Origin: an uncultured Dehalococcoidales bacterium
Lineage (GTDB): Bacteria > Chloroflexota > Dehalococcoidia > GIF9 > AB-539-J10
Direction of reading: 5' to 3'
DNA length: 63,013 nucleotides
Assembly: GCA_964435965.1 (NCBI GenBank)
Contig: CAYTBB010000002.1
Coordinates: 1 to 63,013, forward strand
In this document: positions 1,205-25,278 of the stretch, piece after piece
How the letters are laid out: every line of letters begins with the position of its first letter
Numbering within the stretch: the stretch's first letter is position 1
Notes under the pieces: model-generated
What the model was told of the DNA's origin: nothing
What the model saw: the letters and a program-made list of their open reading frames with translations, nothing else
The model's database searches: none
Program-made: the position numbers and the translations under genes

Positions 1205-3886
1205 ATGGGCATACAAGGCGTAATTACTAAAACAATCCGCAGCGGTCTGGCGTCGCTTGATGAACTTCTGCAAGGGCTGCGCTTGGGTGACAATATGGTC
1301 TGGCAGGTTGACCACCTCGAGGACTATCCATACTTTGCACAAGCGTTCGCTGAGCAAGGAATTCGCGACGGTTTGGATTGTGTTTACCTGCGCTTTGCTC
1401 CCCACACCGCGATCCTCGAGCCGCAACCTGGGCTGACGATTACCAGAATCGACCCTAGTGCTGGGTTCGACTATTTCACTGGTGAGATGCACCGAATAAT
1501 TGAAGAATACGGTAAAAGGGTCTGCTATGTCTTCGATAACCTTTCCGCTCTGGTGGATGAGTGGGCTACCGATGAATCGTTGGCTAACTTCTTTCAGGTG
1601 ACCTGCCCCTACCTTTTTGAAGTTGACGCCGTGGCCTACTTTGCTCTCAGGCGTGGACAACATGGCCACGGCGCCATAGCCCGCATACGCAATATTACTC
1701 AGATACTGGTCGATGTTTACCATGTCGGTGACGATACATACATTCAACCGTTGAAAGTCTGGGATCGCTACTCTACATATATGTTTTTGCCTCATCGCAT
1801 TACTGCTAAGGGATGGGAGCCTATCCTTCGTAGCGGCGATGCGGCAACGATACTGACAACCGCCAGCAAACGACCAATTAATCTTAGCTCTGAATCCATT
1901 GCACCTTGGGATACTGTCTATCGCATGGTGATGCAGCACCATGAAACCGGCCCGGATTTACCACGGCCGACTCACAAAACCATAGGCCTAAAGGAAGCAC
2001 TCTCGCGAATGATGATTGGTAACCACAAGAAGTTGAATCACCTGTCCGACCGTTACCTGACCTTGGATGACCTACTTCAAGTCAGAGACCGTCTGATTGG
2101 CTCTGGACGTATCGGCGGTAAAGCAGCCGGCATGCTACTGGCGAGACGTGTTTTGGTTACGGACAAGGGCAAGACTGATTTTACCCAACTGTTGGAAGAG
2201 CATGATTCATTCTATGTCGGCTCGGATGTGTTCTTCACTTTCCTGGTAAATAATGGTCTGTTCCAACTCAGGCTGCAACTGTCAAAAACGGGTAAGCTCT
2301 CAAGGGATGACTTCGCTAAAGTGGAGCAGCAGTTTCTTGCCGGCCGTTTCCCCGAAGAAATAATGGAACAGTTCCGAAACATGCTCGATTACTACGGACA
2401 GGCCCCTATCATTGTCCGCTCCTCAAGTCTTCTAGAGGATAGCTTCACAAATGCCTTTGCTGGAAAGTACCGCAGCGAGTTCTGTGCCAACAAGGGCAGC
2501 CCTGAAGACCGGTTGGAGGCCTTCTTAAGAGCAATCAAACTGGTTTATGCAAGCGCCCTGAACCCGGATGCCCTTGCGTATCGCCACAGGCGCGGTCTTG
2601 GTGAAGGTGATGAACAGATGGCAATCCTGGTGCAACGTGTTTCGGGTATGCCCTACAAGCGATACTTCTTTCCCACCCTAGCAGGGGTAGCCTTCTCGCG
2701 GAACCTTTATGCTTGGACAAACCGCATCGACCCAAAAATGGGGATGATACGATTAGTGTTCGGTCTGGGTACTCGCGCCGTTAACCGCGTCAGCGGCGAT
2801 CACCCCAGAATGATTGCGGTCAGCCACCCCAATCTTAGGCCAGAGATTGGCATGGAAATAGTCAAGTATTCGCAGCGTATGGTAGATGTTCTTAACCTCG
2901 AATCAAATACTTTTGAGATTAAGCCTTTCGCTGAAATAATTGGCGGGAATAACTACCCTGCTCTTCACTTACTGACATCTGAAATAGCCGATGGTTACCT
3001 GCGTGACTGGTTTATGTCCCCACGGGGCAGTTCGGGGGAAAATCTGGTCTTGACCTTTAACAATTTGATAAATCGAACCGCGCTGGTCAACATAATCGGG
3101 GAGATGTTAATCAAGCTGGAGGAGGCATGGAGCCAGCCGATAGATATTGAATTTACAGCACATGTCGACAGTGAGGGTAACGTAAGGATCAATTTACTAC
3201 AATGCCGCTCATTACGTGTACCCAAGTCAGAGGGTGCTGCTATCAGCATTCCTAAAAATCTCCCCAAGGAAAGAGTGCTGTTCCGCTCCAACAGGGTAAT
3301 AAGCGCCGGGGTGGTTAGAGACATTCGATATATTATCTATATCGACCCCAGAAAATATGCCGAAATAGCAACAATTGATATTAAGGGGACTCTGGGGCGA
3401 GTGATGGGTAAGCTAAATGACCATTTACGTCATAAGGAGGGCAAAGTTATGGCGATGGGACCGGGCCGCTGGGGCAGCAATAACATTGAGCTTGGCGTTA
3501 ACGTGAGCTATGCAGATATTCATGACACGGCGGTACTGGTGGAAGTTGCCCACAAGGAAGCAGGCCATGAGCCGGAAGTCTCCTATGGAACCCACTTCTT
3601 CCAGGACTTAGTGGAGTCTGACATGCTTTATCTTCCCGTTTATCCTGATGATGACGCCGCTGACTTTAATACCGAGTTCTTTGCTCGCTCACCCAACATA
3701 ATGAAGAACTTACTCCCAGAACTGAGCAGCTTTGAGGATGTGGTGCACGTAATTGATGTGCTAGCGGCAACGAGTGGCGCTTCAGCAAAGGTCATTGCTG
3801 ACCTTGAGACCCGCAGTGCCGTTTGTTTTCTGGATAAAATCAAGGAGAAAGGAAAACTATCCCAAAAAGAGGAGGCAAGAAAATGA
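1205..3886 (+). CDS. PEP/pyruvate-binding (PPDK_N-type) domain protein with an N-terminal degenerate KaiC/RecA-like domain and an uncharacterised C-terminal domain
   Basis: The central region has PPDK_N hallmarks (GGKAAGMLLA; VRSSSLLEDS..FAGKYRS). The N-terminal ~230 aa resembles a KaiC-like fold but has no Walker A motif. The start was moved to ATG 1205 (GGAGG 7 nt upstream) because the track's TTG at 1118 is the -35 box. Confidence 0.7.
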   Translation: MGIQGVITKTIRSGLASLDELLQGLRLGDNMVWQVDHLEDYPYFAQAFAEQGIRDGLDCVYLRFAPHTAILEPQPGLTITRIDPSAGFDYFTGEMHRIIEEYGKRVCYVFDNLSALVDEWATDESLANFFQVTCPYLFEVDAVAYFALRRGQHGHGAIARIRNITQILVDVYHVGDDTYIQPLKVWDRYSTYMFLPHRITAKGWEPILRSGDAATILTTASKRPINLSSESIAPWDTVYRMVMQHHETGPDLPRPTHKTIGLKEALSRMMIGNHKKLNHLSDRYLTLDDLLQVRDRLIGSGRIGGKAAGMLLARRVLVTDKGKTDFTQLLEEHDSFYVGSDVFFTFLVNNGLFQLRLQLSKTGKLSRDDFAKVEQQFLAGRFPEEIMEQFRNMLDYYGQAPIIVRSSSLLEDSFTNAFAGKYRSEFCANKGSPEDRLEAFLRAIKLVYASALNPDALAYRHRRGLGEGDEQMAILVQRVSGMPYKRYFFPTLAGVAFSRNLYAWTNRIDPKMGMIRLVFGLGTRAVNRVSGDHPRMIAVSHPNLRPEIGMEIVKYSQRMVDVLNLESNTFEIKPFAEIIGGNNYPALHLLTSEIADGYLRDWFMSPRGSSGENLVLTFNNLINRTALVNIIGEMLIKLEEAWSQPIDIEFTAHVDSEGNVRINLLQCRSLRVPKSEGAAISIPKNLPKERVLFRSNRVISAGVVRDIRYIIYIDPRKYAEIATIDIKGTLGRVMGKLNDHLRHKEGKVMAMGPGRWGSNNIELGVNVSYADIHDTAVLVEVAHKEAGHEPEVSYGTHFFQDLVESDMLYLPVYPDDDAADFNTEFFARSPNIMKNLLPELSSFEDVVHVIDVLAATSGASAKVIADLETRSAVCFLDKIKEKGKLSQKEEARK

Positions 3887-5541
3887 ACCTACAGAGACCA
3901 AATGCAAATGATGCCACCAGAACTGCCAATCGCTCCAAGAACGTAGTGCCAATGAGCGGACTTTGCAGTCGCTGCATTGACGGCTGCACTGGAAACTGTG
4001 AGGTGTTCAAGGCAACTTTCCGTAGCCGGGAGCTAATCTATCCCGGACCCTTTGGCGAAGTTACCGCTGGTGCAGATAAGAACTATCCTGTTGATTACTC
4101 ACACCTTAATATCCAGGGGTATGCATTGGGAGCCAAAGGATTACCTGAAGGCACTATCGGTGACTCAGATACGGCTATTTTCCCGGCAGTAAACATGGAG
4201 ACTGAATACGGCTGGGATAGAAAAGTCAGGATGAGTATCCCCATATTCACCGGGGCGCTGGGTTCTACTGAGATAGCTCGCAAGAACTGGGAACATTTTG
4301 CTATCGGCGCTGCCCTAAGTGGAATTACCCTCGTCTGTGGCGAAAACGTCTGCGGTATGGACCCCCAGCTTGAACTCGATAGACACAGTAAGATTGTTTC
4401 TGCACCGGACATGGACCGTCGAATCGAAATCTACCGTCACTACCACAATGGTTACGGCGAAATCCTGGTACAGATGAATGTTGAGGATACCAGACTGGGT
4501 GTTGCTGAGTACGTAAGCCAGAAGCACGGGCTGGACACTATTGAGTTAAAATGGGGGCAGGGCGCCAAATGCATCGGCGGAGAGGTAAAGGTTAACAGCC
4601 TGGAACGAGCCCTGCAGCTTCAGAGGCGCGGCTATATTGTCACTCCCGACCCCTCACATCCCGTCAACCAGGCAGCTTTTAGGGACGGTGCTCTAAAAGA
4701 ATTTGAACGCCATAGTCGCCTCGGCTTCATTGATGAAGATGGTTTTCAAGCCGAGATCCAACGGCTCCGGAACTTGGGCTTTAAACGCATCACTCTGAAA
4801 ACAGGTGCCTACAGTCTGCGCGAGTTGGCAATGGCGATCAAGTGGGGCTCAAAGGCCGAGATTGACCTGTTGACCATAGACGGCGCTGGCGGCGGCACCG
4901 GGATGAGCCCCTGGCGCATGATGGAGGAATGGGGTATGCCCAGTCTCTATCTGCATTCCGCGGCCTATGAATTCTGTCAAAAGTTAGCTGAGAAAGGTGA
5001 ACGAGTACCCGATATTGCCTTCGGTGGTGGCTTCAGCAGTGAGGATGGTGTTTTTAAGGCGCTGGCCTTGGGCACACCCTTTACTAAGGCAGTATGTATG
5101 GGGCGAGCACTGATGATTCCGGGCATGGTCGGCAAGAATATCCAACAGTGGCTAGCTGAGGGCAAATTGCCGAATACCGTGGGCCAGTTTGGCTCAACTC
5201 CGGAGGAAATATTCGTCTGCTATGAAGATGTCAAGAACATAGTAGGCGTAAATGAAATGAAGAATATTCCTCTGGGTGCCATTGGAATCTATAGCTATGT
5301 CGAGAAGATAAAGGTTGGGTTGCAGCAGTTAATGGCCGGCACCAGGTGTTTTAGTGTGGCCGCAATTACGCGGCGGGAGCTCATGTCTCTCACTGAAGAA
5401 TGTGCCAGAGTCACTGGAATACCTTACTTAATGGATGCCTACCGTGACGAAGCAATGGAGATTCTGGATGGCAACCGCTATGCTCGTGTCAAAAGTAGTA
5501 TGCTGGGCAGCACTGAGTATCATGCCCCAGTTCCAAAATGA
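3883..5541 (+). CDS. FMN-binding glutamate synthase-related protein (GltS domain-2 paralog) with an N-terminal CX2CX3CX3C motif
   Basis: KWGQGAKCIGGE and DGAGGGTGMSP resemble the GltS FMN-domain signatures. There is an ATGA start/stop overlap with the upstream gene. Confidence 0.75.
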   Translation: MNLQRPNANDATRTANRSKNVVPMSGLCSRCIDGCTGNCEVFKATFRSRELIYPGPFGEVTAGADKNYPVDYSHLNIQGYALGAKGLPEGTIGDSDTAIFPAVNMETEYGWDRKVRMSIPIFTGALGSTEIARKNWEHFAIGAALSGITLVCGENVCGMDPQLELDRHSKIVSAPDMDRRIEIYRHYHNGYGEILVQMNVEDTRLGVAEYVSQKHGLDTIELKWGQGAKCIGGEVKVNSLERALQLQRRGYIVTPDPSHPVNQAAFRDGALKEFERHSRLGFIDEDGFQAEIQRLRNLGFKRITLKTGAYSLRELAMAIKWGSKAEIDLLTIDGAGGGTGMSPWRMMEEWGMPSLYLHSAAYEFCQKLAEKGERVPDIAFGGGFSSEDGVFKALALGTPFTKAVCMGRALMIPGMVGKNIQQWLAEGKLPNTVGQFGSTPEEIFVCYEDVKNIVGVNEMKNIPLGAIGIYSYVEKIKVGLQQLMAGTRCFSVAAITRRELMSLTEECARVTGIPYLMDAYRDEAMEILDGNRYARVKSSMLGSTEYHAPVPK

Positions 5542-5586: not shown

Positions 5587-6030
5587 ATGTTTAGGGTCTA
5601 TGTCAATGAGAATGTCTGTATCGGCTGTCACCTCTGTGAGGTGTATTGCCAGCTACAACATGCGCAATCCAAAGACTTAATCAAGGCATTCAAAAGGGAA
5701 TCACCACGTCCTTTGCCAAGACTCCGGGTGGAAGAAAAGGGGGCGGTATCCTTATCAGTGCGTTGTCAGCATTGTGATGAAGCGCCATGTGTCTATGCCT
5801 GTCTTACTGGCACTCTTCATCGGGACGTCGACAGCGGTGTCATCATTGCTGATGAGGAAAGGTGTATAGGTTGCTGGATGTGTATGCTGGTTTGTCCCTT
5901 TGGCGCCATAAGACAGGACACAACGCGAGGGAAGATGCTAAAATGCAACCTGTGCCAAGGAGAGAATATCCCGGTTTGTGTTACCAATTGCCCTAATGAT
6001 GCACTGGTATATGCCGAGATTGACGGTTGA
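5587..6030 (+). CDS. 4Fe-4S dicluster ferredoxin-domain protein
   Basis: Four Cys clusters: CIGCHLCEVYC, CQHCDEAPCVYAC, CIGCWMCMLVCP and CNLCQG..PVCVTNCP. Confidence 0.8.
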   Translation: MFRVYVNENVCIGCHLCEVYCQLQHAQSKDLIKAFKRESPRPLPRLRVEEKGAVSLSVRCQHCDEAPCVYACLTGTLHRDVDSGVIIADEERCIGCWMCMLVCPFGAIRQDTTRGKMLKCNLCQGENIPVCVTNCPNDALVYAEIDG

Positions 6031-6060: not shown

Positions 6061-6687
6061 ATGATTACCATAGTTGATTATGGTGCCGGTAATCTGCGCA
6101 GCGTGGTTAATGCTGTCAGTAAACTGGGCTACCGACCAAAGGTGAGCAGCAGTCCCAACGATGTGCTCAATGCCCAGGCAGTTATTCTGCCCGGGGTTGG
6201 TGCTGGGGGTGATACTATGACCAACCTTATTAAGTTGGGACTGGCTAACTCTATTCGCCAGCTTATTACTGAGGGTCGGCCCTTCTTTGGCATCTGTATC
6301 GGCTTACAGGTCTTATTTAGCATCACTGAAGAAGGGGGTTGGCATGAGTGTCTTGATGTCATTCCCGGTCGTGTTAGGAAACTTCCTTTAGGGCTCAAGA
6401 TACCGCACATGGGGTGGAATCAGGTGAGGCAGATGGTTTCACACCCTATATTTGAGGGCATACCCGATGGGGCTAATTTCTACTTTGCGCATAGCTACTG
6501 TGCTGAGCCAGATGATAGGTCACTGGTGGCTGGCGAGACTGAATATGGCATCCCCATCTGCAGTGTGATTGCTAGAGGAAACCTAGTAGCAACTCAATTT
6601 CACCCGGAGAAGAGCGGCGATTTTGGGTTGAAGATATATGCCAATTTCATAAAACTGGCTATGGAGACAAGTAATCTCAAAAGGTGA
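6061..6687 (+). CDS. hisH: imidazole glycerol phosphate synthase, glutaminase subunit HisH
   Basis: ITIVDYGAGNLRSV, GICIGLQ (nucleophile Cys), HMGWN, FYFAHSY and QFHPEKSG. Confidence 0.9.
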   Translation: MITIVDYGAGNLRSVVNAVSKLGYRPKVSSSPNDVLNAQAVILPGVGAGGDTMTNLIKLGLANSIRQLITEGRPFFGICIGLQVLFSITEEGGWHECLDVIPGRVRKLPLGLKIPHMGWNQVRQMVSHPIFEGIPDGANFYFAHSYCAEPDDRSLVAGETEYGIPICSVIARGNLVATQFHPEKSGDFGLKIYANFIKLAMETSNLKR

Positions 6688-6694: not shown

Positions 6695-8038
6695 ATGACA
6701 AGGAATGCAGTCAAATATTTGATCATAGGTAATTCATCCGGTGGCATCGGTGCGGGTGAAGCTATACGCGAGGTAGATAGGCAAAGCACTATGGCTATTG
6801 TTTCTGACGAGCCCTATCCCGCCTACTCACGACCGCTCATCTCACAATATCTAACTGAGCGGTGCCCTCTGGAGAAGATGCTGTTTCGCCCGGCGGATTT
6901 CTACGAAAAGAACAATATTCAGACTATTCTGGGCCAGAAAGTAGCGGAGCTTAATGTCGATAAACATACCATTAAGCTTGAGGACGGCACAACAATAACC
7001 TGGGAGAAGTTATTGCTGGCTACTGGCGGCTTACCTATCGTGCCCGAGATAGCGGGTATCGACCTGAAAGGAGTCTTTACCTTTGCCACGCTTGATGACG
7101 CCAAGGCAATCGCTCAGTTCCTGAGCCACTATGGGAGAAAGGTAAGGGCTGTGGTCATCGGTGGTGGCCTCATCGGGGTGAGTGTTACTGAAGCACTGGT
7201 AAAGCAAGGGATTGAGGTCACCATTGTCGAGATGAAAGAGCGAATTTTGAACACTATTCTTGATGAAGGGGCATCGGCTCTGGAGGAGAAAGCTCTAGCG
7301 GAGGCCGGTGTTGAAATAATAACCGGACATACGGTGGGCAAGGTCAGCAGCTATTTGCCCGGTGAAGCCACTGGTGTCAGCCTTGATGATAGCCGGCCGA
7401 TGCCCTGTGAAATGGTCATCATAGCGATTGGCGTTCAGCCGCGCATTGAACTTGTGTCTGATAGTGGGATTAAGACAAACCGTGGCATAATCGTTGACTG
7501 CCATATGGCCACATCCAAGCCTGATGTCTATGCGAGCGGGGACGTAGCTGAGGCTTATGATTTCGTCTACGGAGAGAATCGGCTCACTCCTATCTGGCCT
7601 AACGCCCACCTAGGAGGAAGGATCGCTGGCTTGAATATGGCTGGTGTTCCAGCTGGGTATCCGGGCGGGACAGCGATGAATTCCCTGAAATACTTCGGAG
7701 TGAATATTGTCTCGGCTGGCATGGTAACTCCACCTGATGATAGCTACGAAGTAATCAGCTCTAAGCACAACCACATCTACAAGAAGGTGGTGCTGAAGGG
7801 CGGAATAATTGTCGGCATGGTCTTTGCGGGCGATGTTGAAAGGTCGGGCATTATCTACAATTTGATGAAGGAAAAGGTAGACGTCAACAGTTTCAAGGAG
7901 GTTCTCGTCGCTGATGATTTCGGCCTGGCTTCTCTCCCTGAGGAAATCTGGCGAGCGCGGTTAACCATGCCAACATCGGGTTGCATTTCTCCGGGGAACA
8001 TCCGAGAGCAACCTAAGGAATTGGCCTTGGGAGAGTAA
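6695..8038 (+). CDS. FAD/NAD(P)-dependent pyridine nucleotide-disulfide-family oxidoreductase (possible electron-input partner of the split GOGAT)
   Basis: Two Rossmann motifs (IIGNSSGGIGAGEA and VIGGGLIGVSVTEAL), plus ASGDVAE near the C-terminal part. Confidence 0.75.
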   Translation: MTRNAVKYLIIGNSSGGIGAGEAIREVDRQSTMAIVSDEPYPAYSRPLISQYLTERCPLEKMLFRPADFYEKNNIQTILGQKVAELNVDKHTIKLEDGTTITWEKLLLATGGLPIVPEIAGIDLKGVFTFATLDDAKAIAQFLSHYGRKVRAVVIGGGLIGVSVTEALVKQGIEVTIVEMKERILNTILDEGASALEEKALAEAGVEIITGHTVGKVSSYLPGEATGVSLDDSRPMPCEMVIIAIGVQPRIELVSDSGIKTNRGIIVDCHMATSKPDVYASGDVAEAYDFVYGENRLTPIWPNAHLGGRIAGLNMAGVPAGYPGGTAMNSLKYFGVNIVSAGMVTPPDDSYEVISSKHNHIYKKVVLKGGIIVGMVFAGDVERSGIIYNLMKEKVDVNSFKEVLVADDFGLASLPEEIWRARLTMPTSGCISPGNIREQPKELALGE

Positions 8039-9201: not shown

Positions 9202-9969
9202 ATGCTAACTAAACGGATTATTCCCTGTCTTGATGTGAAAAATGGACGGGTAGTAAAGGGAAAGAGCTTTGTGGAGTTGCGTGATGCCGGCGACCCGGTA
9301 GAGTTGGCTAGCTTCTACTATAAAGAGGGTGCTGATGAGTTGGTCTTTCTGGACATTACTGCGACTCCTGAGGAGCGTGACACAATGGTTGATGTCGTTG
9401 AGCGGCTATCCCAAGAAGTGTTTATACCTCTTACTGTAGGCGGGGGACTACGCAGTATTAGTGATATCCGGCGTATTTTGAAGGCAGGAGCAGATAAGAT
9501 ATCCATTAACACTGCCGCTGTAATTCATCCTTCTCTGATTAGAGAAGGGGCTGATAAATTCGGCAGTCAATGCATTGTGGTCGCCATAGATGCCAAGAGG
9601 ATAGATAGGAACAAGGAGCCCCGGTGGGAGGTCTATATCTATAGCGGCCAAAAGCCAACCGGGATTGATGCCCTCGCCTGGGCAAAACAAACGATAGAGC
9701 TTGGGGCTGGGGAAATTTTGCTTACTAGCATTGATTCTGATGGTCATCGGGCAGGGTATGACATTGAACTTACCTGCGCTGTCTCCGAGGCAGTAACGGT
9801 GCCAGTTATTGCCAGTGGTGGTGCGGGCACTCTGGAAGACCTTTATCAAGCTTTAGTTAGCGGAAAGGCAGATGCGGTTCTGGCAGCCAGTATTTTCCAT
9901 TATGGCACTTATTCTATTGCCGAAACCAAGAGATATTTAGCCCAAAAAGGAATACCAATACGAATCTAG
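9202..9969 (+). CDS. hisF: imidazole glycerol phosphate synthase, cyclase subunit HisF
   Basis: [49 protein letters not shown] and IASGGAG. Confidence 0.92.
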
Positions 9970-18694: not shown

Positions 18695-18708
18695 TTTTGG
18701 TATTTTGC

Positions 18709-20340
18709 ATGTCAAAGTATATCTTTGTTACTGGCGGTGTGGTTAGTTCAGTTGGTAAGGGCATCACTGTCGCTTCCATAGGTGCCATTTTGAAGAGTCG
18801 TCAAATCACCGTATCCGTGCAGAAACTAGACCCTTATCTCAATGTTGACCCAGGGACAATGTCACCCTATCAGCATGGTGAGGTATTTGTCACTCAGGAC
18901 GGTGCCGAGACTGACCTTGATTTGGGCAATTACGAGCGATTCATTGATGTTAACCTTACTGCCGAATCTAACGTTACGTCAGGGCAAATCTATAGTGCCG
19001 TTATCGCTAAAGAGAGGCGAGGCGATTTTCTCGGCGGCACTATTCAAGTAGTGCCCCATGTTACCACCGAGATAAAGGAACGCTTCAAGCGATTAGCCCA
19101 GAAATCAAAGGCCGAGGTGGTTATTATAGAGGTAGGCGGCACTGTAGGCGATATTGAGGGACAGCCTTTCCTTGAAGCCATCAGGCAGATGAGAAATGAT
19201 GTTGGGCGGGATAACATCTTCTACGTCCACGTTACTCTTCTTCCGTATCTTACTTCCACCCAAGAGCTGAAGACTAAGCCTACTCAACACAGCGTTAACG
19301 AGCTGCGCCGCATTGGTATTCAGCCTGATATTATCATATGCCGCAGTGATCACCCCATCTCGGAAGGAATAAGGGATAAAATATCTCTGTTCTGCGATGT
19401 AGACCGGCAGGCGGTCATCTCCCTGCCCACTGTATCCACTATCTATGAGGTACCACTGGTTCTGGAGGACGAAGGCTTGGGACAATTAACCTTGGACAAG
19501 CTTGGGCTTAAGGCACAACAGCCCAACCTGAGCCAGTGGCAGAAGCTGCTCTCATCCCTTAAAGAATCCCATGAGCCAGTTAATATCGCCCTAGTCGGCA
19601 AATATGTGGAGTTAAAGGATGCCTATTTCTCGGTTCGTGAGGCACTACATCACGCTGCTCTACATCATGAGAGAGATGTTAATCTCATCTGGGTTCAATC
19701 TGAGGATTTGGAAAAAGATAATAGCGATGCTCTGCTGCATACAGCCCAAGGTATCATAATCCCTGGTGGCTTTGGTATTAGAGGAATAGAAGGTATGATA
19801 AAGGCAGCCAACTATGCTCGAAGCAATAAAATCCCCTACTTAGGATTATGCCTGGGAATGCAGGTTATGGTAATCGAGTTTGCACGCTATGTCCTAAACT
19901 CAAGTGAGCCAAACTCTGCTGAGTTTGATGCCTCTACCCCTTACCCTGTCATCGACCTACTCCCTGAGCAGAAGGATATAGAAAACAAGGGGGGCACCAT
20001 GCGGTTGGGTAACTACCCCTGTGAACTAAGTCCAGGCAGCCGGGCAGCTACCGCCTATGGACAGAGTGTGGTTTACGAGCGCCACAGACATCGCTACGAG
20101 TTCAACAATCAATTTCGTGCTCAGCTAGAGAAGGCAGGAATGGTCTATAGTGGATTATCCCCTGATGGCAGGCTTGTGGAGCTCTGCGAACTAGCCAACC
20201 ATCCGTGGATGGTGGGCTGCCAGTTCCACCCTGAATTTGGCTCCCGCCCTGGTCGTCCTCATCCCCTGTTCCACGATTTCATTGGTATAGCCAAAAATAT
20301 TCTACGTGAAGGAGCTCAACCTCTGCTTCCCCTTTCTTAA
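18709..20340 (+). CDS. pyrG: CTP synthase
   Basis: [25 protein letters not shown] and CQFHPEF. The start was trimmed to ATG 18709. Confidence 0.93.
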
Positions 20341-20426: not shown

Positions 20427-23276
20427 TTGTTTCGAGTTGAAATCTCTATGAAGGATGGGTTCCGAGACCCCCGAGGAGAAGCCCTACAAAAGGATGTATG
20501 CGACCTCGGCATTACAACTGTAAAACAGGTTCGAGTCAGCGATATATATCTTCTGGAGAGGAACCTAGACGAAATTGAGGTGAGAAGAATCTGCGAAGAA
20601 CTTCTGGCTGACCCCGTAGTTGAAGAATATTCCTATAACGAAGTGCCCCTACCCCAAGGCTCTCATCTCATCGAAGTCGCCTACAATCCCGGTGTGATAG
20701 ATCCTGTGGAGGAGAGTGTTAGAAAGGGAATCCGCGACCTCGGTATAACCACCGTTGACTCGGTAAGAACCGCCAAGAGATACCTGCTATGGGGTGAACT
20801 CTCGGACGAGGCTTTTCAATCTATCTGTGACAAGCTATTGGTTAATAGCGTTATCCAGCATGCCGTCACCAAGCGTGAGGCGATCTCTGTTCCATCCCTG
20901 AGATACGAGTTCGCCCTAAATACTGCAGATTTGCTAAATATGGACGATAGCGGACTAATGGAGGTGAGCAAAGACAGGCTCTGGTTGAATTTAAACGAGA
21001 TGAAACAGATCCAGGATCACTTCTCCAAACTGGGCCGTAATCCAACCGATGTCGAGGTTGAAACCTTAGCGCAAACTTGGTCTGAGCACTGCGTACATAA
21101 GACCTTTAAGAGTAAAATCAAGCTTGGTCAACTTACTATCGACAATCTACTCAAAAGTACCATTATGAGAGTCACTGAGGAATTGAAAAAGCCGTGGTGT
21201 CTTTCGGTCTTTCGAGACAATTCCGGTGTCATAGATTTCGATGGTCGCTATGCAATTTGTTTTAAGGTAGAAACACACAATCACCCATCAGCATTGGAGC
21301 CCTACGGAGGAGCCGCAACAGGGATAGGTGGCGTTATTCGCGATCCCTTGGGCACAGGGCTCGGAGCCAAGCCTATCATGAACACTGATGTGTTCTGCTT
21401 TGGGCCCCCCGATTTTCCTTATGAGAGACTCCCCAAGGGTGTCCTACATCCCCGCCGCATTTTCAGAGGCGTTCGTGCCGGAGTGGCCGACTATGCAAAC
21501 CGCCTCGGTATTCCCACACTTAATGGAGCGATACTCTTTGATGAGCGATATGTAGGAAACCCGCTGGTCTTCTGTGGAACAGTAGGATTGTTACCCACGA
21601 GCATGAGTCAAATACGCCAGCAGGAACCAGGGGATTTGGTCGTTCTGGTGGGAGGTAGAACTGGGCGTGATGGAATTCATGGTGCTACTTTTGCTTCAGC
21701 AGAGCTTACCAAAGAGTCTGAAATTATTTCTTCCACTTCTATTCAAATAGGTAATCCCATCATGGAGAAAAAGCTGATTGACATCCTCATTAGGGCACGG
21801 GACCGGGGACTTTATCGGCGAATCACCGATTGTGGCGGTGGTGGACTTTCATCAGCAGTGGGAGAAATGGCTGCCAAAACAGGGGTACGAGTCTACTTGG
21901 AACGAGTCCCTTTGAAGTATTCAGGACTCTCCTACACAGAGATATGGTTGTCTGAATCACAGGAGCGAATGTTGCTGGCTGTCCCGCCAAGCACCATTGA
22001 GCAGTTGATTGCCCTTTTCCAGAGCGAAGATGTGGAAGCTACAGTCATCGGCGAGTTCACTGGTAACCGGCATCTCCAGCTTTTCTATGACGGAAATCCC
22101 ATTGGCGACCTTGATATGGAATTTCTGCATAATGGTCTGCCTCAACTCGGGCGAGAAGCGGTGTGGGAGCTGCCGCAATATGCCGAGCCGGACTTTCCAC
22201 CACCCCCCGACCTGCGGGGAGACCTGTTGCGCATCCTGGGCTCGTGGAATGTTTGCTCCAAGGAATGGGTGATACGCCAATACGACCACGAGGTACAGGG
22301 TGGTAGTGTCCTCAAACCCCTGGTAGGGGCAAATAATGACGGTCCCAGCGATGCCGCTATTATCAGACCAATACTTGATTCAGACATGGGTGTCATCGTT
22401 TCTAATGGCATCAACCCCAAATATGGAGACATTGACCCTTACTGGATGGCTGCCTCTGCCATAGACGAAGCATTGAGGCAAATTATTGCTGTCGGAGGTA
22501 GCCTTCAAAAGGTAGCGCTGCTAGACAACTTCTGTTGGGGCAATCCAGACAAGCCTGACAGACTTGGTGGCTTAGTGCGAGCGGCGCAAGCGTGTTACGA
22601 CATTGCGATTGCGTACGAGACCCCTTTTATCTCTGGCAAGGATAGCCTGTACAATGAGTATGAGACTGAAAAAGAGAGCATCTGTATTCCACCTACGCTT
22701 CTCATCTCTGCGGTGGCAGTGATTGCAAATGTAAACAGAGCAGTTTCTATGGACTGCAAGCAGGAAGGTGACCTGATCTATATTGTCGGTACCACGCTGA
22801 ATGAGCTCGGCGGTTCGCACTACTACGGTATTCGTGGCTATATAGGCAACAATGTACCCAAGGTAAACCCCAGGAAGGGGAAGGGGCTTATGAATGCCCT
22901 TAGCACAGCCATAGAGAAGGGTCTGGTCAGGGCTTGCCATGATTGCAGTGAGGGTGGCATTGGGGTAGCCGCCGCTGAGATGGCCTTCGCCGCAGGGCTT
23001 GGGATGACAATTTCTCTGAAGCAAGTTCCGCTAGGCGAACCGATAAATCGAGACGATATCGTGCTCTTCTCTGAATCTAACACTCGTTTTTTGGTAGAGG
23101 TGGCTCCAAAACATAAGGCTAAGTTCGAGAATATGATGACCGGAGTCGATTTTGCTGCTATTGGTCGGGTCACAAATAAACAAAGATTAGAGGTGTATGG
23201 ACTTACAGGCAAGAGGGTGCTTTCAGCACCTCTTGCCGAACTAAAAGAGGCTTGGCAGAAACCGCTCCGATGGTAA
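20427..23276 (+). CDS. purL: phosphoribosylformylglycinamidine synthase, PurS-PurS-PurL fusion
   Basis: Two N-terminal PurS-like repeats (..KDGFRDPRGEAL..GITTV..VR and ..NPGVIDPVEESV..GITTV..VR). A PurL body follows (VETHNHPSALEPYGGAATG, GGRTGRDGIHGA). TTG start with an AAAGGAG RBS. Confidence 0.9.
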   Translation: MFRVEISMKDGFRDPRGEALQKDVCDLGITTVKQVRVSDIYLLERNLDEIEVRRICEELLADPVVEEYSYNEVPLPQGSHLIEVAYNPGVIDPVEESVRKGIRDLGITTVDSVRTAKRYLLWGELSDEAFQSICDKLLVNSVIQHAVTKREAISVPSLRYEFALNTADLLNMDDSGLMEVSKDRLWLNLNEMKQIQDHFSKLGRNPTDVEVETLAQTWSEHCVHKTFKSKIKLGQLTIDNLLKSTIMRVTEELKKPWCLSVFRDNSGVIDFDGRYAICFKVETHNHPSALEPYGGAATGIGGVIRDPLGTGLGAKPIMNTDVFCFGPPDFPYERLPKGVLHPRRIFRGVRAGVADYANRLGIPTLNGAILFDERYVGNPLVFCGTVGLLPTSMSQIRQQEPGDLVVLVGGRTGRDGIHGATFASAELTKESEIISSTSIQIGNPIMEKKLIDILIRARDRGLYRRITDCGGGGLSSAVGEMAAKTGVRVYLERVPLKYSGLSYTEIWLSESQERMLLAVPPSTIEQLIALFQSEDVEATVIGEFTGNRHLQLFYDGNPIGDLDMEFLHNGLPQLGREAVWELPQYAEPDFPPPPDLRGDLLRILGSWNVCSKEWVIRQYDHEVQGGSVLKPLVGANNDGPSDAAIIRPILDSDMGVIVSNGINPKYGDIDPYWMAASAIDEALRQIIAVGGSLQKVALLDNFCWGNPDKPDRLGGLVRAAQACYDIAIAYETPFISGKDSLYNEYETEKESICIPPTLLISAVAVIANVNRAVSMDCKQEGDLIYIVGTTLNELGGSHYYGIRGYIGNNVPKVNPRKGKGLMNALSTAIEKGLVRACHDCSEGGIGVAAAEMAFAAGLGMTISLKQVPLGEPINRDDIVLFSESNTRFLVEVAPKHKAKFENMMTGVDFAAIGRVTNKQRLEVYGLTGKRVLSAPLAELKEAWQKPLRW

Positions 23277-23288: not shown

Positions 23289-24059
23289 ATGGCTAAAGTA
23301 AAGACACTTATATTACGCGCCCCCGGGACAAACTGTGACGTGGAAACAGTATTTGCTTTTGAACAGGCTGGCTCAGTAGTAGAATCCGCACATATCAATG
23401 AACTCGTACGCCGAGAAAAGCTGCTTTTCAATTACCAGATAATGGTCATACCTGGTGGTTTTACCTATGGTGATGATATCTCAGCCGGGAAAATCTTAGC
23501 TAATGAACTAAGGCTAAAGCTAGGAGAAGATATCAAAAGGTTTGTTAATGACGGAAGGCTCATCTTGGGAATCTGCAATGGTTTTCAGGTTCTGGTGAAG
23601 GCTAGAATTCTACCTAGATTAGGGGGTAAAAAATCCCAACCATTAACCTTAGCTAGCAATGATTCTGGCAAGTTTGAGTGCCGTTGGGTCTATCTACAGG
23701 TCAACGAGACAAGTCCCTGTATATTTACCCGGGGCATAAGCACAATGTACCTTCCTGTAGCCCACGGGGAGGGCAAGGTCTTAGCTGAACCTGGGGTAGC
23801 AGAGAGGCTAAATATAGTCCTATACTACACTGATGAGAAGGGAGACATTCTAGCTGGGTATCCTTATAACCCGAATGGCTCAGTAGGTAATATAGCTGGC
23901 ATATGTGATGTTTCTGGGCGTGTCTTTGGCTTAATGCCGCATCCTGAACGTTTTGTCCGCTGGACGCAGCATCCGAAGTGGCTTAGAGAGCCGCTGAGAG
24001 ACTATGGAGACGGCTTGCAGATTTTTATAAACGCCGTTCAATGGGCAAAAACCATCTGA
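23289..24059 (+). CDS. purQ: phosphoribosylformylglycinamidine synthase, glutaminase subunit PurQ
   Basis: LILRAPGTNCD, GGFTYGDD, GICNGFQ and MPHPER. Confidence 0.9.
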   Translation: MAKVKTLILRAPGTNCDVETVFAFEQAGSVVESAHINELVRREKLLFNYQIMVIPGGFTYGDDISAGKILANELRLKLGEDIKRFVNDGRLILGICNGFQVLVKARILPRLGGKKSQPLTLASNDSGKFECRWVYLQVNETSPCIFTRGISTMYLPVAHGEGKVLAEPGVAERLNIVLYYTDEKGDILAGYPYNPNGSVGNIAGICDVSGRVFGLMPHPERFVRWTQHPKWLREPLRDYGDGLQIFINAVQWAKTI

Positions 24060-24136: not shown

Positions 24137-24240
24137 TGAGTTAACTGGTGCCCTGCGATTGTATAGCTATTTCTGCTGATTTAATGTTGATAACAGGGCT
24201 CAGTGGGTATGAGCTATTCAACTTTTGAGGTAGGAGTGGT

Positions 24241-25278
24241 ATGATGGCTCCAGATTATCTCAGAGACTTAAGAGAGGTCCGTATGGTGCAAGATGCCAGC
24301 TATGAAACAGAAAGCAAGCTAATATCCATTCTCAGGATCTTAAGTGAGGCCTCGGAACCCCTTGGGTCGATTACCATTGCTCGCAAACTTGAGTGCGAAG
24401 GAGTTTTCCTGAGTGAGAGGGCAGTCAGATATCACCTGAGAACAACGGACGAGCGTGGTTATACTCAACCGATGGGTCGGGATGGCAGAATGATTACTCC
24501 TGAAGGACGTCAGGAGATCAAGGAAGCATTAGCACCAAGGCAACTAGGCTTTGTACGTGAGAAGCTTGAGATGCTGGCCTTCCAAACCACATTTGACCCC
24601 CAAAAACGAACTGGTCAATTATCCGTAAATACCTCACTCATCGACAAGGACAAGTTCAAAAAGGCAATATCAGCTATGAAGGATGCATTCAAGGCTGGAA
24701 TTTGTGTCAGTGATTTAGTGGCCACAGCGTCCGAAGGAGGAAAACTCGGTTTTGTGGTCGTGCCAAGTGGGAAAATTGGCTTGGCTACTGTTTGCAGCGT
24801 GGTCATAAATGGTGTGCTTCTTAAGGCTGGTGTTCCTACAGAGTACAGGTTTGGAGGCGTGCTCGAAGTTAGAAAGCTAAAGCCAAGGCGCTTTGTGGCT
24901 ATAATCGAATATTCTGGTACATCCCTCGATCCCTCTGAGCAGTTTATCCGTGCTAAAATGACGAACGTTGGTGAAGCATCGAGGACAGGGAATGGCAAAA
25001 TACTGGGTGTTTTTCGCACAATTCCGGCACCAGCCAGAGAAGTCTTCGAAGAGAAGGTTGCTATGCTCAAAGAGGCTGGCATTGATGGGGTTTACGCCTT
25101 GGGGAATACCAGCGAGCCGCTTTGTCAGATCACAGTAGCGTTGAATCGGATCGGTATTATACAACTCGGTGGTCTCAATCCGGTGGCGGCAGCCGTTGAG
25201 GCTGGATTTGAGATCGAAAACATGGCCGAGAGTGGACTGATTGATTTCGAGCAGTTACATAGCGTTTGGCAGTTGTAA
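24241..25278 (+). CDS. nrpR: NrpR-like nitrogen regulatory protein (winged-helix domain plus one NrpR/DUF128 domain)
   Basis: N-terminal wHTH (LISILRILSEASEPLGSITIARKL..RAVRYHL..GRMITPEGRQEI). The body has a pattern I recognise from archaeal NrpR (VN.S......F; GK.G..TVCS..NG.LLK.G.P; YSG.S.DP; FR.IP..AR; GG.NP.AA). Called from memory without an alignment. Confidence 0.6.
   Translation: MMAPDYLRDLREVRMVQDASYETESKLISILRILSEASEPLGSITIARKLECEGVFLSERAVRYHLRTTDERGYTQPMGRDGRMITPEGRQEIKEALAPRQLGFVREKLEMLAFQTTFDPQKRTGQLSVNTSLIDKDKFKKAISAMKDAFKAGICVSDLVATASEGGKLGFVVVPSGKIGLATVCSVVINGVLLKAGVPTEYRFGGVLEVRKLKPRRFVAIIEYSGTSLDPSEQFIRAKMTNVGEASRTGNGKILGVFRTIPAPAREVFEEKVAMLKEAGIDGVYALGNTSEPLCQITVALNRIGIIQLGGLNPVAAAVEAGFEIENMAESGLIDFEQLHSVWQL

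What the first reader, a model, noticed from the sequence alone, without database searches (positions are those of the whole stretch)
1205..25278. 24-kb co-directional cluster organised around glutamine rather than a pathway: GS, split GOGAT and eight different glutamine amidotransferases, capped by an NrpR-like regulator
**Seen.** Seventeen same-strand genes run from 1205 to 24059. Intergenic gaps are 0 to 93 nt and several junctions are ATGA overlaps. An NrpR-like gene follows after 181 nt.

**Content.** Besides glnA and a three-gene archaeal-type glutamate synthase, the cluster collects glutaminase or amidotransferase components from unrelated pathways:
- HisH/HisF (histidine)
- NadE with a nitrilase domain (NAD)
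- CarA (arginine/pyrimidine)
- PdxT (PLP)
- PurF, PurSL and PurQ (purine)
- PyrG (CTP)

All three mechanistic GATase classes are present: triad GxCxGxQ...HPE, Ntn Cys, and nitrilase.

**What is missing.** The cognate non-glutamine partners are absent from this window: carB, pdxS, hisA/B/I, and the other pur and pyr genes.

**Inference.** The unifying principle is the substrate, glutamine amide nitrogen. That suggests one nitrogen-status regulon or super-operon that matches all glutamine consumers to GS/GOGAT capacity. I cannot tell from here whether this arrangement has been described.
Basis: partly seen in the sequence, partly recalled or inferred. Interest (0 to 1): 0.8.

Follow-up and report, generated by a model that had tools for sequence, protein, structure and literature searches.

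The report
Glutamine-centred gene cluster in Dehalococcoidales
An uncultured Dehalococcoidales bacterium has lined up glutamine synthetase, glutamate synthase and eight glutamine-using enzymes from unrelated pathways in one tightly packed gene row next to an archaeal-type nitrogen repressor, which looks like gene organisation by shared substrate rather than by pathway.

Summary
Seventeen co-directional genes (1205-24059, gaps -4 to 93 nt) encode GS, a split GOGAT and eight glutamine amidotransferases, followed by nrpR. It is not an assembly artefact: five other metagenome contigs carry parts of the region at 99.9-100% identity.

Corrections:
- carA carries a 1-nt deletion in this strain. It is intact in a contig 97.8% identical.
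- The first two genes are not amidotransferases.
- nrpR starts at 24283 and has its own promoter.

Relatives share a core: GOGAT with embedded hisH/hisF, usually amtB-glnB, then glnA-nadE-nrpR. The nadE-nrpR gap is a variable slot. It is usually empty. When filled, it holds glutamine-dependent genes in all but one lineage. Only the window's near relatives carry carA-pdxT-purF-pyrG-purSL-purQ, and purF left a purF-purM-purH operon to join it. Two other metagenome contigs hold comparable clusters.

The lead promoter carries GGTA-N6-TACC at the predicted transcription start. It aligns with GGAA-N6-TTCC, the published NrpR operator consensus, in relatives. Nitrogen-status co-regulation is therefore plausible but unproven. 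Some relatives show deletion remnants, so the arrangement is labile. I found no published description.

The parts
1118..1152 (+). Lead promoter: -35 TTGACA (1118-1123), a 17-18 nt spacer, and a -10 inside a (TA)n run (1141-1152).
   Evidence: Read directly from the sequence. It aligns with the promoters heading the GOGAT operon in L005, L006, L035, L175, L179 and L182.
1153..1166 (.). Perfect dyad GGTATATGGCTACC at about +1. Candidate NrpR-type operator, part of a conserved ~23-nt element (GGnAtgcGGcaaCCGcTTgCCGc).
   Evidence: It is the only perfect GGTA-N6-TACC in the 63 kb. It aligns with GGAATGCGGATTCC in L035 and GGAAAGCGGTTGCC in L005. Perfect GGNA-N6-TN'CC dyads are about 10-fold enriched next to N-cluster genes, Fisher p = 8e-5. 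The NrpR consensus GGAAN6TTCC is from PMC2723118.
1205..3886 (+). 893-aa protein with a central PPDK_N (ATP-grasp, PEP-synthase-like) domain. Function unknown. Not an amidotransferase.
   Evidence: Pfam PF01326, 2e-45. No PDB sequence match. It heads the operon only in the window's close relatives (L175, L163-165).
3883..5541 (+). 552-aa FMN Glu_synthase-family paralogue with an N-terminal Cys-rich motif. Function unknown.
   Evidence: Pfam PF01645, 6.8e-15, partial match. 29% identity over 106 aa to the GOGAT FMN subunit. It recurs at the nitrogen cluster in L014, L019, L179 and L181.
5587..6030 (+). 2x[4Fe-4S] ferredoxin-like protein. Probable electron-transfer partner of the GOGAT.
   Evidence: Pfam Fer4_11. 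It is the conserved first gene of the GOGAT block in relatives.
6061..6687 (+). hisH, the imidazole glycerol phosphate synthase glutaminase (class I triad).
   Evidence: TIGR01855, 206.7 bits against a cut-off of 105.4. Motifs GICIGLQ and HPE are present.
6695..8038 (+). Pyr_redox_2 NAD(P)H oxidoreductase (PadH/NirB-like). Probable reductant-feeding subunit of the GOGAT.
   Evidence: Its position is conserved in relatives.
8062..9201 (+). GOGAT glutaminase domain protein (class II, Ntn-Cys).
   Evidence: Pfam GATase_2, 38.8 bits against a cut-off of 19.9. A Cys follows a 19-residue leader.
9202..9969 (+). hisF, the IGP synthase cyclase subunit.
   Evidence: TIGR00735, 386.5 bits against a cut-off of 294.6.
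9980..11485 (+). GOGAT FMN/Fe-S domain protein.
   Evidence: Pfam Glu_synthase, 2.5e-137, plus an N-terminal Fer4.
11487..12245 (+). GOGAT GXGXG domain protein.
   Evidence: Pfam PF01493, 1.4e-30.
12339..13682 (+). glnA, type I glutamine synthetase.
   Evidence: TIGR00653, 528.7 bits against a cut-off of 429.2.
13718..15454 (+). nadE, glutamine-dependent NAD+ synthetase with a nitrilase-type glutaminase domain.
   Evidence: NF010588, 729.6 bits against a cut-off of 479.
15510..16615 (+). carA, carbamoyl-phosphate synthase small subunit. Interrupted by a 1-nt deletion between 15672 and 15673. No carB follows.
   Evidence: The gene is intact (368 aa) in the 97.8%-identical contig L177. The catalytic residues of the C-terminal ORF are intact.
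16612..17187 (+). pdxT, the PLP synthase glutaminase. No pdxS in the window.
   Evidence: TIGR03800, 222.1 bits against a cut-off of 105.6.
17207..18694 (+). purF, amidophosphoribosyltransferase (Ntn-Cys). Likely start at 17222.
   Evidence: TIGR01134, 501 bits against a cut-off of 350. Orthologues in close relatives lie in purF-purM-(purN)-purH operons.
18691..20340 (+). pyrG, CTP synthase. Likely start at 18709.
   Evidence: NF003792, 839 bits against a cut-off of 308.
20427..23276 (+). purS-purL fusion, the FGAM synthase synthetase component.
   Evidence: TIGR01736, 638.9 bits against a cut-off of 525.8. PurS NF004630 scores 75.9 against 75.
23289..24059 (+). purQ, the FGAM synthase glutaminase.
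   Evidence: TIGR01737, 200.4 bits against a cut-off of 177.8.
24217..24245 (+). nrpR's own promoter: TTCAAC, 17 nt, then the extended -10 TGGTATGAT.
   Evidence: The orthologous GCGTGGTATAAT promoter sits in front of nrpR in more than 20 relatives.
24283..25278 (+). nrpR, an archaeal-type nitrogen repressor homologue (wHTH plus one NRD domain, 331 aa).
   Evidence: Pfam HTH_12, 8.5e-17, and NRD1_2, 5e-77. PDB 3NEK (MJ0159), 1.2e-24. Relatives are 331 aa.

Best explanation
**What it is.** This is a nitrogen-assimilation super-cluster of an uncultured Dehalococcoidales bacterium. It has grown by recruiting glutamine-amide-consuming enzymes.

**Core.** The clade-wide core has four parts:
- a multi-subunit archaeal-type GOGAT: Fe-S protein, NAD(P)H oxidoreductase, and glutaminase, FMN and GXGXG domain proteins;
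- hisH and hisF embedded within it;
- glnA and nadE downstream;
- a separately transcribed nrpR after them.

**Extension.** In the window's lineage the gap between nadE and nrpR was filled with carA, pdxT, purF, pyrG, purS-L and purQ. The amtB/glnB/GlnR-like module seen in relatives is missing.

**Proposed mechanism.** The 17 genes are transcribed mainly from one sigma-70-type promoter at 1118-1152. NrpR binds the dyad at the transcription start when 2-oxoglutarate is low, and releases it when 2-oxoglutarate rises under nitrogen limitation. Glutamine production (GS), glutamate regeneration (GOGAT) and the main glutamine consumers would then rise and fall together.

**Shown.**
- gene identities;
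- tight co-directional packing;
- contig integrity;
- the conserved core;
- the variable slot, filled almost only with glutamine-dependent genes;
- relocation of purF;
- the conserved promoter and dyad element;
- the independent nrpR promoter.

**Inferred.**
- a single transcript;
- NrpR binding to GGTA-N6-TACC;
- the 2-oxoglutarate response;
- the selective advantage of co-expression.
For: - Gene assignments exceed curated cut-offs.
- Five contigs from four samples cover window 1-26246 at 99.97-100% identity.
- Sister contigs at 98%, 95% and about 90% identity carry the head, middle and tail of the same arrangement.
- The core order is conserved in more than 30 related loci.
- Slot contents:
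  - empty in about 21 loci;
  - carA-carB in 5;
  - pdxT in 1-2;
  - carA-pdxT-purS in 1 lineage;
  - the full block in the window's relatives;
  - non-GATase genes in only one locus, L040.
- asnB (L003, L017), guaA (L035), purSL (L048) and purF (L091) also lie at or near the cluster.
- Comparable clusters occur on other contigs: L141 has gltB-gltD-pyrG-carA-carB(N-terminal half)-purF and L134 has purF-guaA-purSL-purQ.
- Enrichment has P of about 1e-9 to 1e-7.
- No terminator-like site lies in any intergenic gap. The only extended -10 promoter in a gap is the one in front of nrpR.
- The lead promoter and dyad are conserved across seven lineages, with half-sites GGTA/TACC, GGCA/TGCC and GGAA/TTCC.
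- Such dyads are about 10-fold enriched beside N-cluster genes, p = 8e-5.
- NrpR binds GGAAN6TTCC and controls glnA, amtB-glnK and nif in Methanococcus (PMC2723118).
Against: - No canonical GGAAN6TTCC lies near the cluster in this window. The GGTA variant is untested, and one perfect copy per 63 kb is expected by chance.
- The dyad frame within the conserved element is ambiguous. A weak RNA hairpin is an alternative reading.
- There is no transcript data. A 23-kb single transcript is a strong assumption, and weak internal promoters before glnA or purSL cannot be excluded.
- Repressing essential nucleotide and cofactor enzymes under nitrogen sufficiency is physiologically odd unless repression is partial.
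- Related lineages have deleted or broken slot genes: a nadE internal deletion in L171/L172, nadE/pdxT remnants in L174, and the carA frameshift here. Selection for the full set is therefore not strong everywhere.
- Gene copies elsewhere in the genome are unknown.
Confidence: 0.5

Rival explanations
1. The cluster is a constitutive housekeeping operon. It is real and perhaps co-transcribed, but nitrogen status does not control it. In a streamlined genome, glutamine-dependent steps that need high, growth-linked expression drifted next to the ribosomal-protein operons, and nrpR merely neighbours them.
For: - The cluster abuts the ribosomal-protein/EF-G super-operon at 27360-46893.
- nrpR has its own promoter.
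- No canonical NrpR operator is present.
- amtB, glnB and the GlnR-like regulator are absent from this version.
Against: - Growth-linked selection would not pick only the glutamine-dependent steps. It would not leave purM/purH, pdxS, carB and hisA behind.
- The lead promoter keeps a conserved dyad element that matches the NrpR consensus in relatives.
- nrpR is linked to glnA-nadE in more than 25 loci.
Confidence: 0.25
2. The arrangement is a transient by-product of a rearrangement hotspot. The nadE-nrpR gap is recombination-prone. Relocated or duplicated amidotransferase genes accumulate there and then decay, so the eight-GATase row is a short-lived state without adaptive meaning.
For: - carA is frameshifted here but intact at 97.8% identity.
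- L171/L172 carry an internally deleted nadE and a truncated purS(L).
- L174 carries fused nadE/pdxT remnants with integrase fragments nearby.
- IS481 fragments lie upstream in L175 and integrase genes lie downstream in L169.
Against: - A neutral hotspot should collect random genes, yet all but one of the filled slots hold only glutamine-dependent genes.
- Junctions are tight and overlapping, as in translationally coupled operons.
- All slot genes other than carA keep full-length matches above curated cut-offs, and catalytic motifs are present in those checked.
- Comparable clusters occur on other contigs.
Confidence: 0.15
3. The driver is physical rather than transcriptional. Co-translation of GS and amidotransferases from one mRNA promotes a glutamine-handling assembly (metabolon), and regulation by nitrogen status is secondary.
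For: There is only indirect support. Glutaminase subunits (carA, pdxT, hisH) are separated from their usual synthase partners yet kept beside GS.
Against: - Nothing in the sequences indicates interaction modules.
- carB stays with carA in five relatives.
- As far as I know, no GS-amidotransferase complex has been described.
Confidence: 0.05
4. The row is an assembly chimera or a product of mis-annotation.
For: None was found.
Against: - Contigs from four samples carry the region at 99.97-100% identity, and one JGI contig spans the whole cluster.
- Composition is uniform, with GC 0.47-0.53 across 1-26 kb.
- All family assignments exceed curated cut-offs.
Confidence: 0.01

Closest known systems
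NrpR regulon of Methanococcus maripaludis (nif, glnA, glnK-amtB, mod operons; operator GGAAN6TTCC; relieved by 2-oxoglutarate)
   Same: - The repressor belongs to the same family: wHTH plus NRD, with a match to MJ0159.
- It is genetically linked to glnA and, in relatives, to amtB-glnB.
- A 4-N6-4 dyad of the same geometry sits at nitrogen-gene promoters.
   Different: - The host is a bacterium with sigma-70-type promoters.
- The protein has a single NRD domain (331 aa).
- The presumed target is a 23-kb row that adds GOGAT, hisHF, nadE and six further amidotransferase genes.
- In this window the dyad is GGTA-N6-TACC, not GGAA-N6-TTCC.
- Binding has not been tested.
Archaeal-type split glutamate synthase (separate glutaminase, FMN and GXGXG domain proteins)
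   Same: Three separate ORFs carry the GATase_2, Glu_synthase and GXGXG domains in one block.
   Different: - hisH and hisF are interleaved with the GOGAT genes.
- No GltD-like subunit is present.
- A 2x[4Fe-4S] protein and a Pyr_redox_2 oxidoreductase are conserved partners instead.
Actinobacterial GlnR regulon (orphan OmpR-type regulator; gTnAc-n6-GaAAc boxes before amtB-glnK, glnA and gltBD)
   Same: Relatives of the window carry an OmpR-type regulator inside the cluster. They also carry four hexamer repeats of the GTAACA/GAAACA type, about 11 nt apart, upstream of amtB.
   Different: This module is absent from the window's own cluster. The resemblance of the repeats to GlnR boxes is from my memory of the literature and was not tested.
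Pathway-centred operons such as the Bacillus subtilis purEKBCSQLFMNHD operon, carAB, pdxST and hisBHAFI
   Same: The cluster contains the same enzymes: purF, purS/L/Q, carA, pdxT and hisH/F.
   Different: - Only the glutamine-dependent members are present.
- The conserved pairs carA-carB and pdxS-pdxT are broken.
- purF has left the purF-purM-purH operon that close relatives retain.
Supra-operons or uber-operons, i.e. mixed-pathway gene rows such as the B. subtilis trp-hisC-tyrA-aroE supraoperon
   Same: Genes of several pathways sit in one co-directional, tightly spaced row.
   Different: Here the shared property is a co-substrate, glutamine amide nitrogen, rather than linked end-products. 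I found no description of such a case.

Membership tests
NrpR nitrogen repressor family (PF01995 / COG1693) | N-terminal winged-helix DNA-binding domain | tested here: met
   Pfam HTH_12, 8.5e-17, residues 28-93 of the long ORF.
NrpR nitrogen repressor family (PF01995 / COG1693) | NRD regulatory domain | tested here: met
   Pfam NRD1_2, 5e-77, covering profile positions 1-237 of 238. PDB 3NEK (MJ0159), 1.2e-24.
NrpR nitrogen repressor family (PF01995 / COG1693) | Palindromic operator GGAAN6TTCC at promoters of nitrogen-assimilation genes | tested here: inconclusive
   There is no canonical site near the cluster. The variant GGTA-N6-TACC sits at +1 of the lead promoter. It aligns with GGAA-N6-TTCC in L035 and L005. 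Such dyads are enriched about 10-fold beside N-cluster genes.
NrpR nitrogen repressor family (PF01995 / COG1693) | DNA binding relieved by 2-oxoglutarate | not testable with these tools
   This needs EMSA or footprinting with purified protein.
NrpR nitrogen repressor family (PF01995 / COG1693) | Genomic linkage to glnA and other nitrogen-assimilation genes | tested here: met
   nrpR follows glnA-nadE, with or without slot genes, in more than 25 related loci.
Archaeal-type split glutamate synthase | Separate glutaminase (GATase_2), FMN (Glu_synthase) and GXGXG proteins encoded together | tested here: met
   Genes at 8062-9201, 9980-11485 and 11487-12245. The order is conserved in relatives.
Archaeal-type split glutamate synthase | Ntn catalytic cysteine in the glutaminase protein | tested here: inconclusive
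   A Cys at residue 20 (…IIDA|CSLFG…) follows a leader peptide. Processing cannot be tested here.
Glutamine amidotransferases (class I triad, class II Ntn, nitrilase-type) | Each of the eight genes matches its curated equivalog model above the cut-off | tested here: met
   Searches cover HisH, NadE, CarA (C-terminal ORF), PdxT, PurF, PyrG and PurQ. The GOGAT glutaminase passes only the Pfam threshold.
Glutamine amidotransferases (class I triad, class II Ntn, nitrilase-type) | Intact reading frame | tested here: not met
   This applies to carA only. A 1-nt deletion relative to three intact homologues splits it into a 76-aa ORF and a 294-aa ORF. The other seven genes are intact.
Single operon under one nitrogen-responsive promoter | Co-directional genes with short or overlapping junctions and no internal terminators | tested here: met
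   Gaps are -4 to 93 nt. No terminator-like site lies in any gap.
Single operon under one nitrogen-responsive promoter | One promoter, no internal promoters | tested here: inconclusive
   There is a strong conserved lead promoter. No extended -10 promoter lies in a gap before the one in front of nrpR. Weak promoters before glnA or purSL cannot be excluded.
Single operon under one nitrogen-responsive promoter | Continuous transcript whose level follows nitrogen status | not testable with these tools
   No transcript data are available.
Actinobacterial-type GlnR regulon | OmpR-type regulator gene and direct-repeat boxes at amtB or glnA | tested here: not met
   Both are present in relatives. The window's cluster has no OmpR-type gene, amtB, glnB or such repeats.

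The most novel reading that the evidence does not exclude
Operons can be organised by a shared co-substrate. On this reading a 2-oxoglutarate-sensing, archaeal-derived repressor controls one transcription unit. That unit couples glutamine synthesis and glutamate regeneration to most glutamine-amide-consuming enzymes of histidine, NAD, pyrimidine, purine and PLP synthesis. Under nitrogen limitation, enzyme levels would rise to offset the falling glutamine pool. The same logic would have evolved more than once in anaerobic bacteria, as the L141 cluster gltBD-pyrG-carA-carB-purF suggests.
Probability: 0.3. Interest if true: 0.8.

Novelty: new variant of a known kind. Interest (0 to 1): 0.62.

Why it matters
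Gene clusters are normally read as pathways. A cluster whose only common denominator is a co-substrate would be a different organising logic.

If true, it gives a direct genomic handle on an under-studied question: how cells share a limiting glutamine pool among competing amidotransferases.

It would also extend the target range of NrpR. That archaeal repressor was acquired by Dehalococcoidia (PMC1852104 attributes this to lateral transfer). Its known targets are uptake, assimilation and nitrogen-fixation genes. Here it would also control nucleotide, NAD, PLP and histidine synthesis in a bacterium.

The natural series of variants amounts to a ready-made evolutionary experiment for testing whether co-location is selected:
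- an empty slot;
- carAB;
- pdxT;
- the full block;
- deletion remnants.

There is a practical lesson for annotation. Orphan carA, pdxT or purF genes in Dehalococcoidales MAGs should not be taken as evidence that a pathway is incomplete or complete.

Tried and rejected
- **Canonical NrpR operator in the window.** GGAAN6TTCC gave two hits, both inside the ribosomal-protein region and no more than chance.
- **GGTA-N6-TACC with one mismatch.** 20 hits against 17.5 expected. Only the perfect site at 1153 is at a promoter.
- **Riboswitch or known RNA in the leaders.** Rfam at E<=1 found only tRNA-Ile and a spurious hit.
- **RNA-hairpin reading of the conserved leader element.** Nine pairs, one compensatory change, and a covariation term that does not favour the structure. 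Not convincing.
- **A 9-mer (TACCGCTTA) shared by the lead element and the pyrG-purSL gap.** It is not conserved in L171, so I treated it as chance.
- **Programmed frameshift in carA.** There is no slippery heptamer at the site (read from the sequence), and the gene is intact in a 97.8%-identical contig. I treat it as a mutation.
- **Terminator and promoter scans.** No terminator lies in any gap, and the generic sigma-70 scan found no more sites than in shuffled sequence.
- **PDB sequence searches for the two head genes.** No matches. NCBIfam at E<=1 gave nothing useful.
- **Literature.** Six searches combining NrpR, Dehalococcoides or Dehalococcoidia, and amidotransferase gene names found no description of the cluster. 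One paper notes NrpR homologues in Dehalococcoides.
- **Arrangement in cultured Dehalococcoides mccartyi.** I could not retrieve it.

Full report
**1. What is in the window**

The + strand carries 17 consecutive ORFs between 1205 and 24059. Junctions range from a 4-nt overlap to 93 nt.

Curated NCBIfam models identify these genes above their cut-offs:
- hisH (6061-6687)
- hisF (9202-9969)
- type I glnA (12339-13682)
- glutamine-dependent nadE with a nitrilase domain (13718-15454)
- carA
- pdxT (16612-17187)
- purF (17207-18694)
- pyrG (18691-20340)
- a purS-purL fusion (20427-23276)
- purQ (23289-24059)

Pfam identifies the three pieces of a split glutamate synthase:
- GATase_2 at 8062-9201
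- Fer4 plus Glu_synthase at 9980-11485
- GXGXG at 11487-12245

Interleaved with them are a 2x[4Fe-4S] protein (5587-6030) and a Pyr_redox_2 oxidoreductase (6695-8038).

- GxCxGxQ with HPE in HisH, PyrG and PurQ
- GICLGHQ with a His-x-Glu in CarA
- Cys (GTCAG) with HPE in PdxT
- Ntn-type Cys after short leaders in PurF and the GOGAT glutaminase

The gene after purQ has a winged-helix domain plus an NrpR regulatory domain (5e-77). It matches the solved NrpR-like protein MJ0159.

The rest of the window holds ribosomal-protein operons with EF-G, gyrA, aspartate-pathway genes and a radical SAM gene. It holds no carB, pdxS, or other his, pur or pyr genes.

**2. Corrections**

- **carA is broken.** The ATG at 15510 opens a frame that stops after 76 codons, and the rest of CarA continues in another frame. 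Alignment with three intact homologues shows a single missing base between 15672 and 15673. The same 76-aa call appears in four contigs identical to the window. A contig 97.8% identical (L177) has an intact 368-aa carA. It is a recent, strain-level frameshift. There is no slippery sequence at the site.
- **The first two genes are not amidotransferases.** One is an 893-aa protein with a central PPDK_N domain. The other is a 552-aa distant paralogue of the GOGAT FMN subunit. Neither has a PDB sequence match.
- **nrpR is its own unit.** Its annotated ATG (24241) lies inside the -10 box of a promoter (TTCAAC, 17 nt, TGGTATGAT). That promoter is conserved as GCGTGGTATAAT in front of nrpR in more than 20 relatives. 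The RBS-preceded ATG at 24283 gives the 331-aa length of those relatives.

**3. Is the contig real?**

L163, L164, L165 and L166 match window 1-15541 at 100% identity, and L001 matches 14241-26246 at 99.97%. They come from three JGI samples and one ENA sample. L001 and L164 are two parts of one JGI contig that spans the whole cluster. Base composition is uniform. The row is not chimeric.

**4. What relatives show**

*NadE relatives.* In species-representative genomes they are Dehalococcoidales or Dehalococcoidia MAGs, with a best identity of 85%. I mapped all window proteins onto these loci and onto contexts fetched through NrpR and ferredoxin homologues. This defines a clade-wide core:

fer4 - hisH - oxidoreductase - GOGAT glutaminase - hisF - GOGAT FMN - GXGXG - [second nrpR] - [OmpR-type regulator] - [asnB] - amtB - glnB - [second glnA] - glnA - nadE - [slot] - nrpR (identities).

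*The slot.*
- It is empty in about 21 loci.
- It holds carA-carB in five (L003, L012, L013, L022, L173).
- It holds pdxT in L019. L014 also has nadE-pdxT.
- It holds carA-pdxT-purS in L171/L172.
- It holds unrelated genes (a GNAT protein and others) only in L040.
- Elsewhere around the cluster, guaA follows nadE in L035, purSL follows nadE in L048, and purF lies three genes after glnA in L091.

*The full block.* carA-pdxT-purF-pyrG-purSL-purQ occurs in full only in contigs 99.9-100% identical to the window. Sister contigs carry parts of it:
- L177, 98% identical, reaches carA.
- L175, 95% identical, covers the head.
- L169/L170, about 90% identical, have purL-purQ-nrpR.

*purF has moved.* purF orthologues of close relatives (66-85% identity) are mostly outside the cluster. 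Where I annotated the downstream genes, purM follows directly and purH lies nearby (L120: purM, an unassigned 235-aa ORF, purH; L087 and L091: purM). So purF was relocated and its pathway neighbours were left behind.

*Comparable clusters on other contigs.*
- L141 has gltB-gltD-pyrG-carA-carB(N-terminal half)-purF with near-zero gaps.
- L134 has carB(C-terminal half)-purF-guaA-purSL-purQ.
- L160 has nadE-hisF-purF.

*Chance.* With assumed genome sizes, eight amidotransferase genes in one 17-gene run has a genome-wide probability of 1e-9 to 1e-7.

**5. Lability**

The locus also decays.
- L171/L172 carry a 109-aa nadE with an internal in-frame deletion. Their purS is followed directly by sequence homologous to the window's purQ-nrpR spacer.
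- L174 carries a nadE N-terminal fragment fused to a pdxT C-terminal fragment. The window's pdxT-purF spacer and the nrpR promoter follow it, with integrase fragments nearby.

These look like deletion derivatives of a window-like ancestor. Together with the carA frameshift, they show that the full set is not maintained everywhere. Either the genes are dispensable in some lineages, through auxotrophy or second copies, or selection on the arrangement is weak.

**6. Regulation**

*Terminators and promoters.* No terminator-like site falls in any intergenic gap. The only extended -10 promoter in a gap is the one in front of nrpR.

*Lead promoter.* Upstream of the first gene lies a strong promoter: TTGACA at 1118, a 17-18 nt spacer, and a (TA)n -10. 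The perfect dyad GGTATATGGCTACC (1153-1166) follows immediately. This promoter and element align with those heading the GOGAT operon in six other lineages.

| Lineage | Dyad element |
|---|---|
| window | GGTATATGGCTACC |
| L175 | GGTACATGGCTACC |
| L182 | GGTATGCGGCAACC |
| L006 | GGCAACCGCTTGCC |
| L179 | GGTAGACGGTTGCC |
| L035 | GGAATGCGGATTCC |
| L005 | GGAAAGCGGTTGCC |

*Link to NrpR.* The published NrpR operator consensus is GGAAN6TTCC (PMC2723118).
- Perfect dyads of the form GGNA-N6-TN'CC also precede the OmpR-type gene in L033 and amtB in L013 and L024. One lies next to a divergent second nrpR in L181.
- Such dyads occur 8 times in 17.3 kb of intergenic DNA beside nitrogen-cluster genes. 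They occur 5 times in 110.8 kb of other intergenic DNA. Fisher p = 8e-5.
- The half-sites change symmetrically between lineages (A/T, C/G, T/A). This fits a dimeric DNA-binding protein.

*Limits.*
- An RNA hairpin is only weakly supported and no Rfam family matches.
- The dyad frame within the ~23-nt conserved element is ambiguous.
- The canonical sequence is absent from this window.
- Nothing here shows binding.

**7. Most likely mechanism**

I judge it most likely (about 0.5) that the row is mainly one transcription unit. On this view NrpR throttles its lead promoter in response to 2-oxoglutarate. GS, GOGAT and the main glutamine consumers would then be co-expressed.

A plausible benefit is that enzyme levels rise when the glutamine pool falls. 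The steps shown and the steps inferred are listed under the best explanation.

The main rivals are:
- a constitutive housekeeping operon that merely neighbours nrpR (0.25);
- a transient product of a rearrangement hotspot (0.15).

A chimera is excluded.

**8. Comparison with what is known**

The repressor is a member of the NrpR family by both domain criteria. Operator use and effector response remain untested.

The GOGAT is the archaeal split type, with unusual partners and embedded hisH/hisF.

NrpR homologues in Dehalococcoides have been noted and attributed to lateral transfer (PMC1852104).

Six literature searches found no description of an amidotransferase-centred cluster.

I class it as a new variant of a known kind: a nitrogen-assimilation cluster or NrpR regulon extended to enzymes chosen by co-substrate.

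**9. Verdict**

The functional reading is attractive and testable but unproven. The arrangement is evolutionarily labile. Interest 0.62.

Noticed in passing
window 15510-15741 (deletion between 15672 and 15673): carA carries a 1-nt deletion that splits it into a 76-aa ORF and a 294-aa ORF. The same split is seen in all contigs identical to the window. The gene is intact (368 aa) in contig L177, which is 97.8% identical. No slippery site is present, so this is a recent strain-level pseudogene or variant.
   Followed up: yes
L003:6860-6957, L006:3080-3212, L008, L010, L013, L024, L029, L031, L040, L044, L046, L067 (upstream of amtB): Relatives carry four hexamer repeats of the GTAACA/TTAACA/GAAACA type, about 11 nt apart, upstream of amtB. 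They lie next to an OmpR-type regulator gene inside the cluster. From memory this resembles actinobacterial GlnR boxes. If so, it implies a GlnR-like system alongside NrpR in Dehalococcoidales.
   Followed up: partly
window 55052-62385: tRNA-Pro (55052-55128) is followed by five partial copies of its 3' half, at 56876, 58319, 60235, 61678 and 62334, spaced 0.7-1.9 kb apart. There is also a 1479-nt direct duplication (56879-58357 and 60238-61716, 99.3% identical). Each copy encodes a 404-aa protein with a weak GNAT match. This looks like serial site-specific integration at tRNA-Pro.
   Followed up: partly
window 24241 versus 24283: The longest nrpR ORF starts at an ATG that lies inside the gene's own -10 box (TGGTATGAT). 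The 343/344-aa homologues in public collections probably share this mis-called start.
   Followed up: yes
window 1205-5541; L175, L179, L181, L014, L019: A PPDK_N-domain protein (893 aa) heads the operon in the window's close relatives. A Cys-rich FMN Glu_synthase paralogue (552 aa) follows it. The paralogue recurs at nitrogen clusters of several relatives. In L181 it lies in a divergent unit with a second hisF-like gene and a second nrpR. The function of both proteins is unknown.
   Followed up: partly
L171:6717-7475 and 9199-9816; L174:3500-3850: These loci hold deletion derivatives of a window-like cluster. L171 has an in-frame internally deleted nadE (109 aa) and a purS stub joined to the purQ-nrpR spacer. 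L174 has a nadE fragment fused to a pdxT fragment directly before the nrpR promoter.
   Followed up: yes
L141:60-11368; L134:8398-16667; L160:42-3119: Other metagenome contigs, from unidentified organisms whose purF is only 44-48% identical, cluster amidotransferases too. L141 has gltB-gltD-pyrG-carA-carB(N-terminal half)-purF. L134 has carB(C-terminal half)-purF-guaA-purSL-purQ. L160 has nadE-hisF-purF. carB is split into two half-size genes in L134 and L141.
   Followed up: partly
window 1141-1152 versus L175:5549-5560: The -10 region of the lead promoter is a (TA)6 run in the window. In the 95%-identical contig L175 it is shorter and interrupted (TATATTGTATGG). A length-variable repeat sits between the promoter and the dyad.
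   Followed up: no
window 20381-20404 and 24111-24138: Two inverted repeats lie in the larger gaps: CTCTTAA-N6-TTAAGAG before purSL and GAAGCTGA-N12-TCAGCTTC after purQ. Neither has a T-tract. The first is partly kept in L171. Their role is unknown; they could be processing or stability hairpins.
   Followed up: partly
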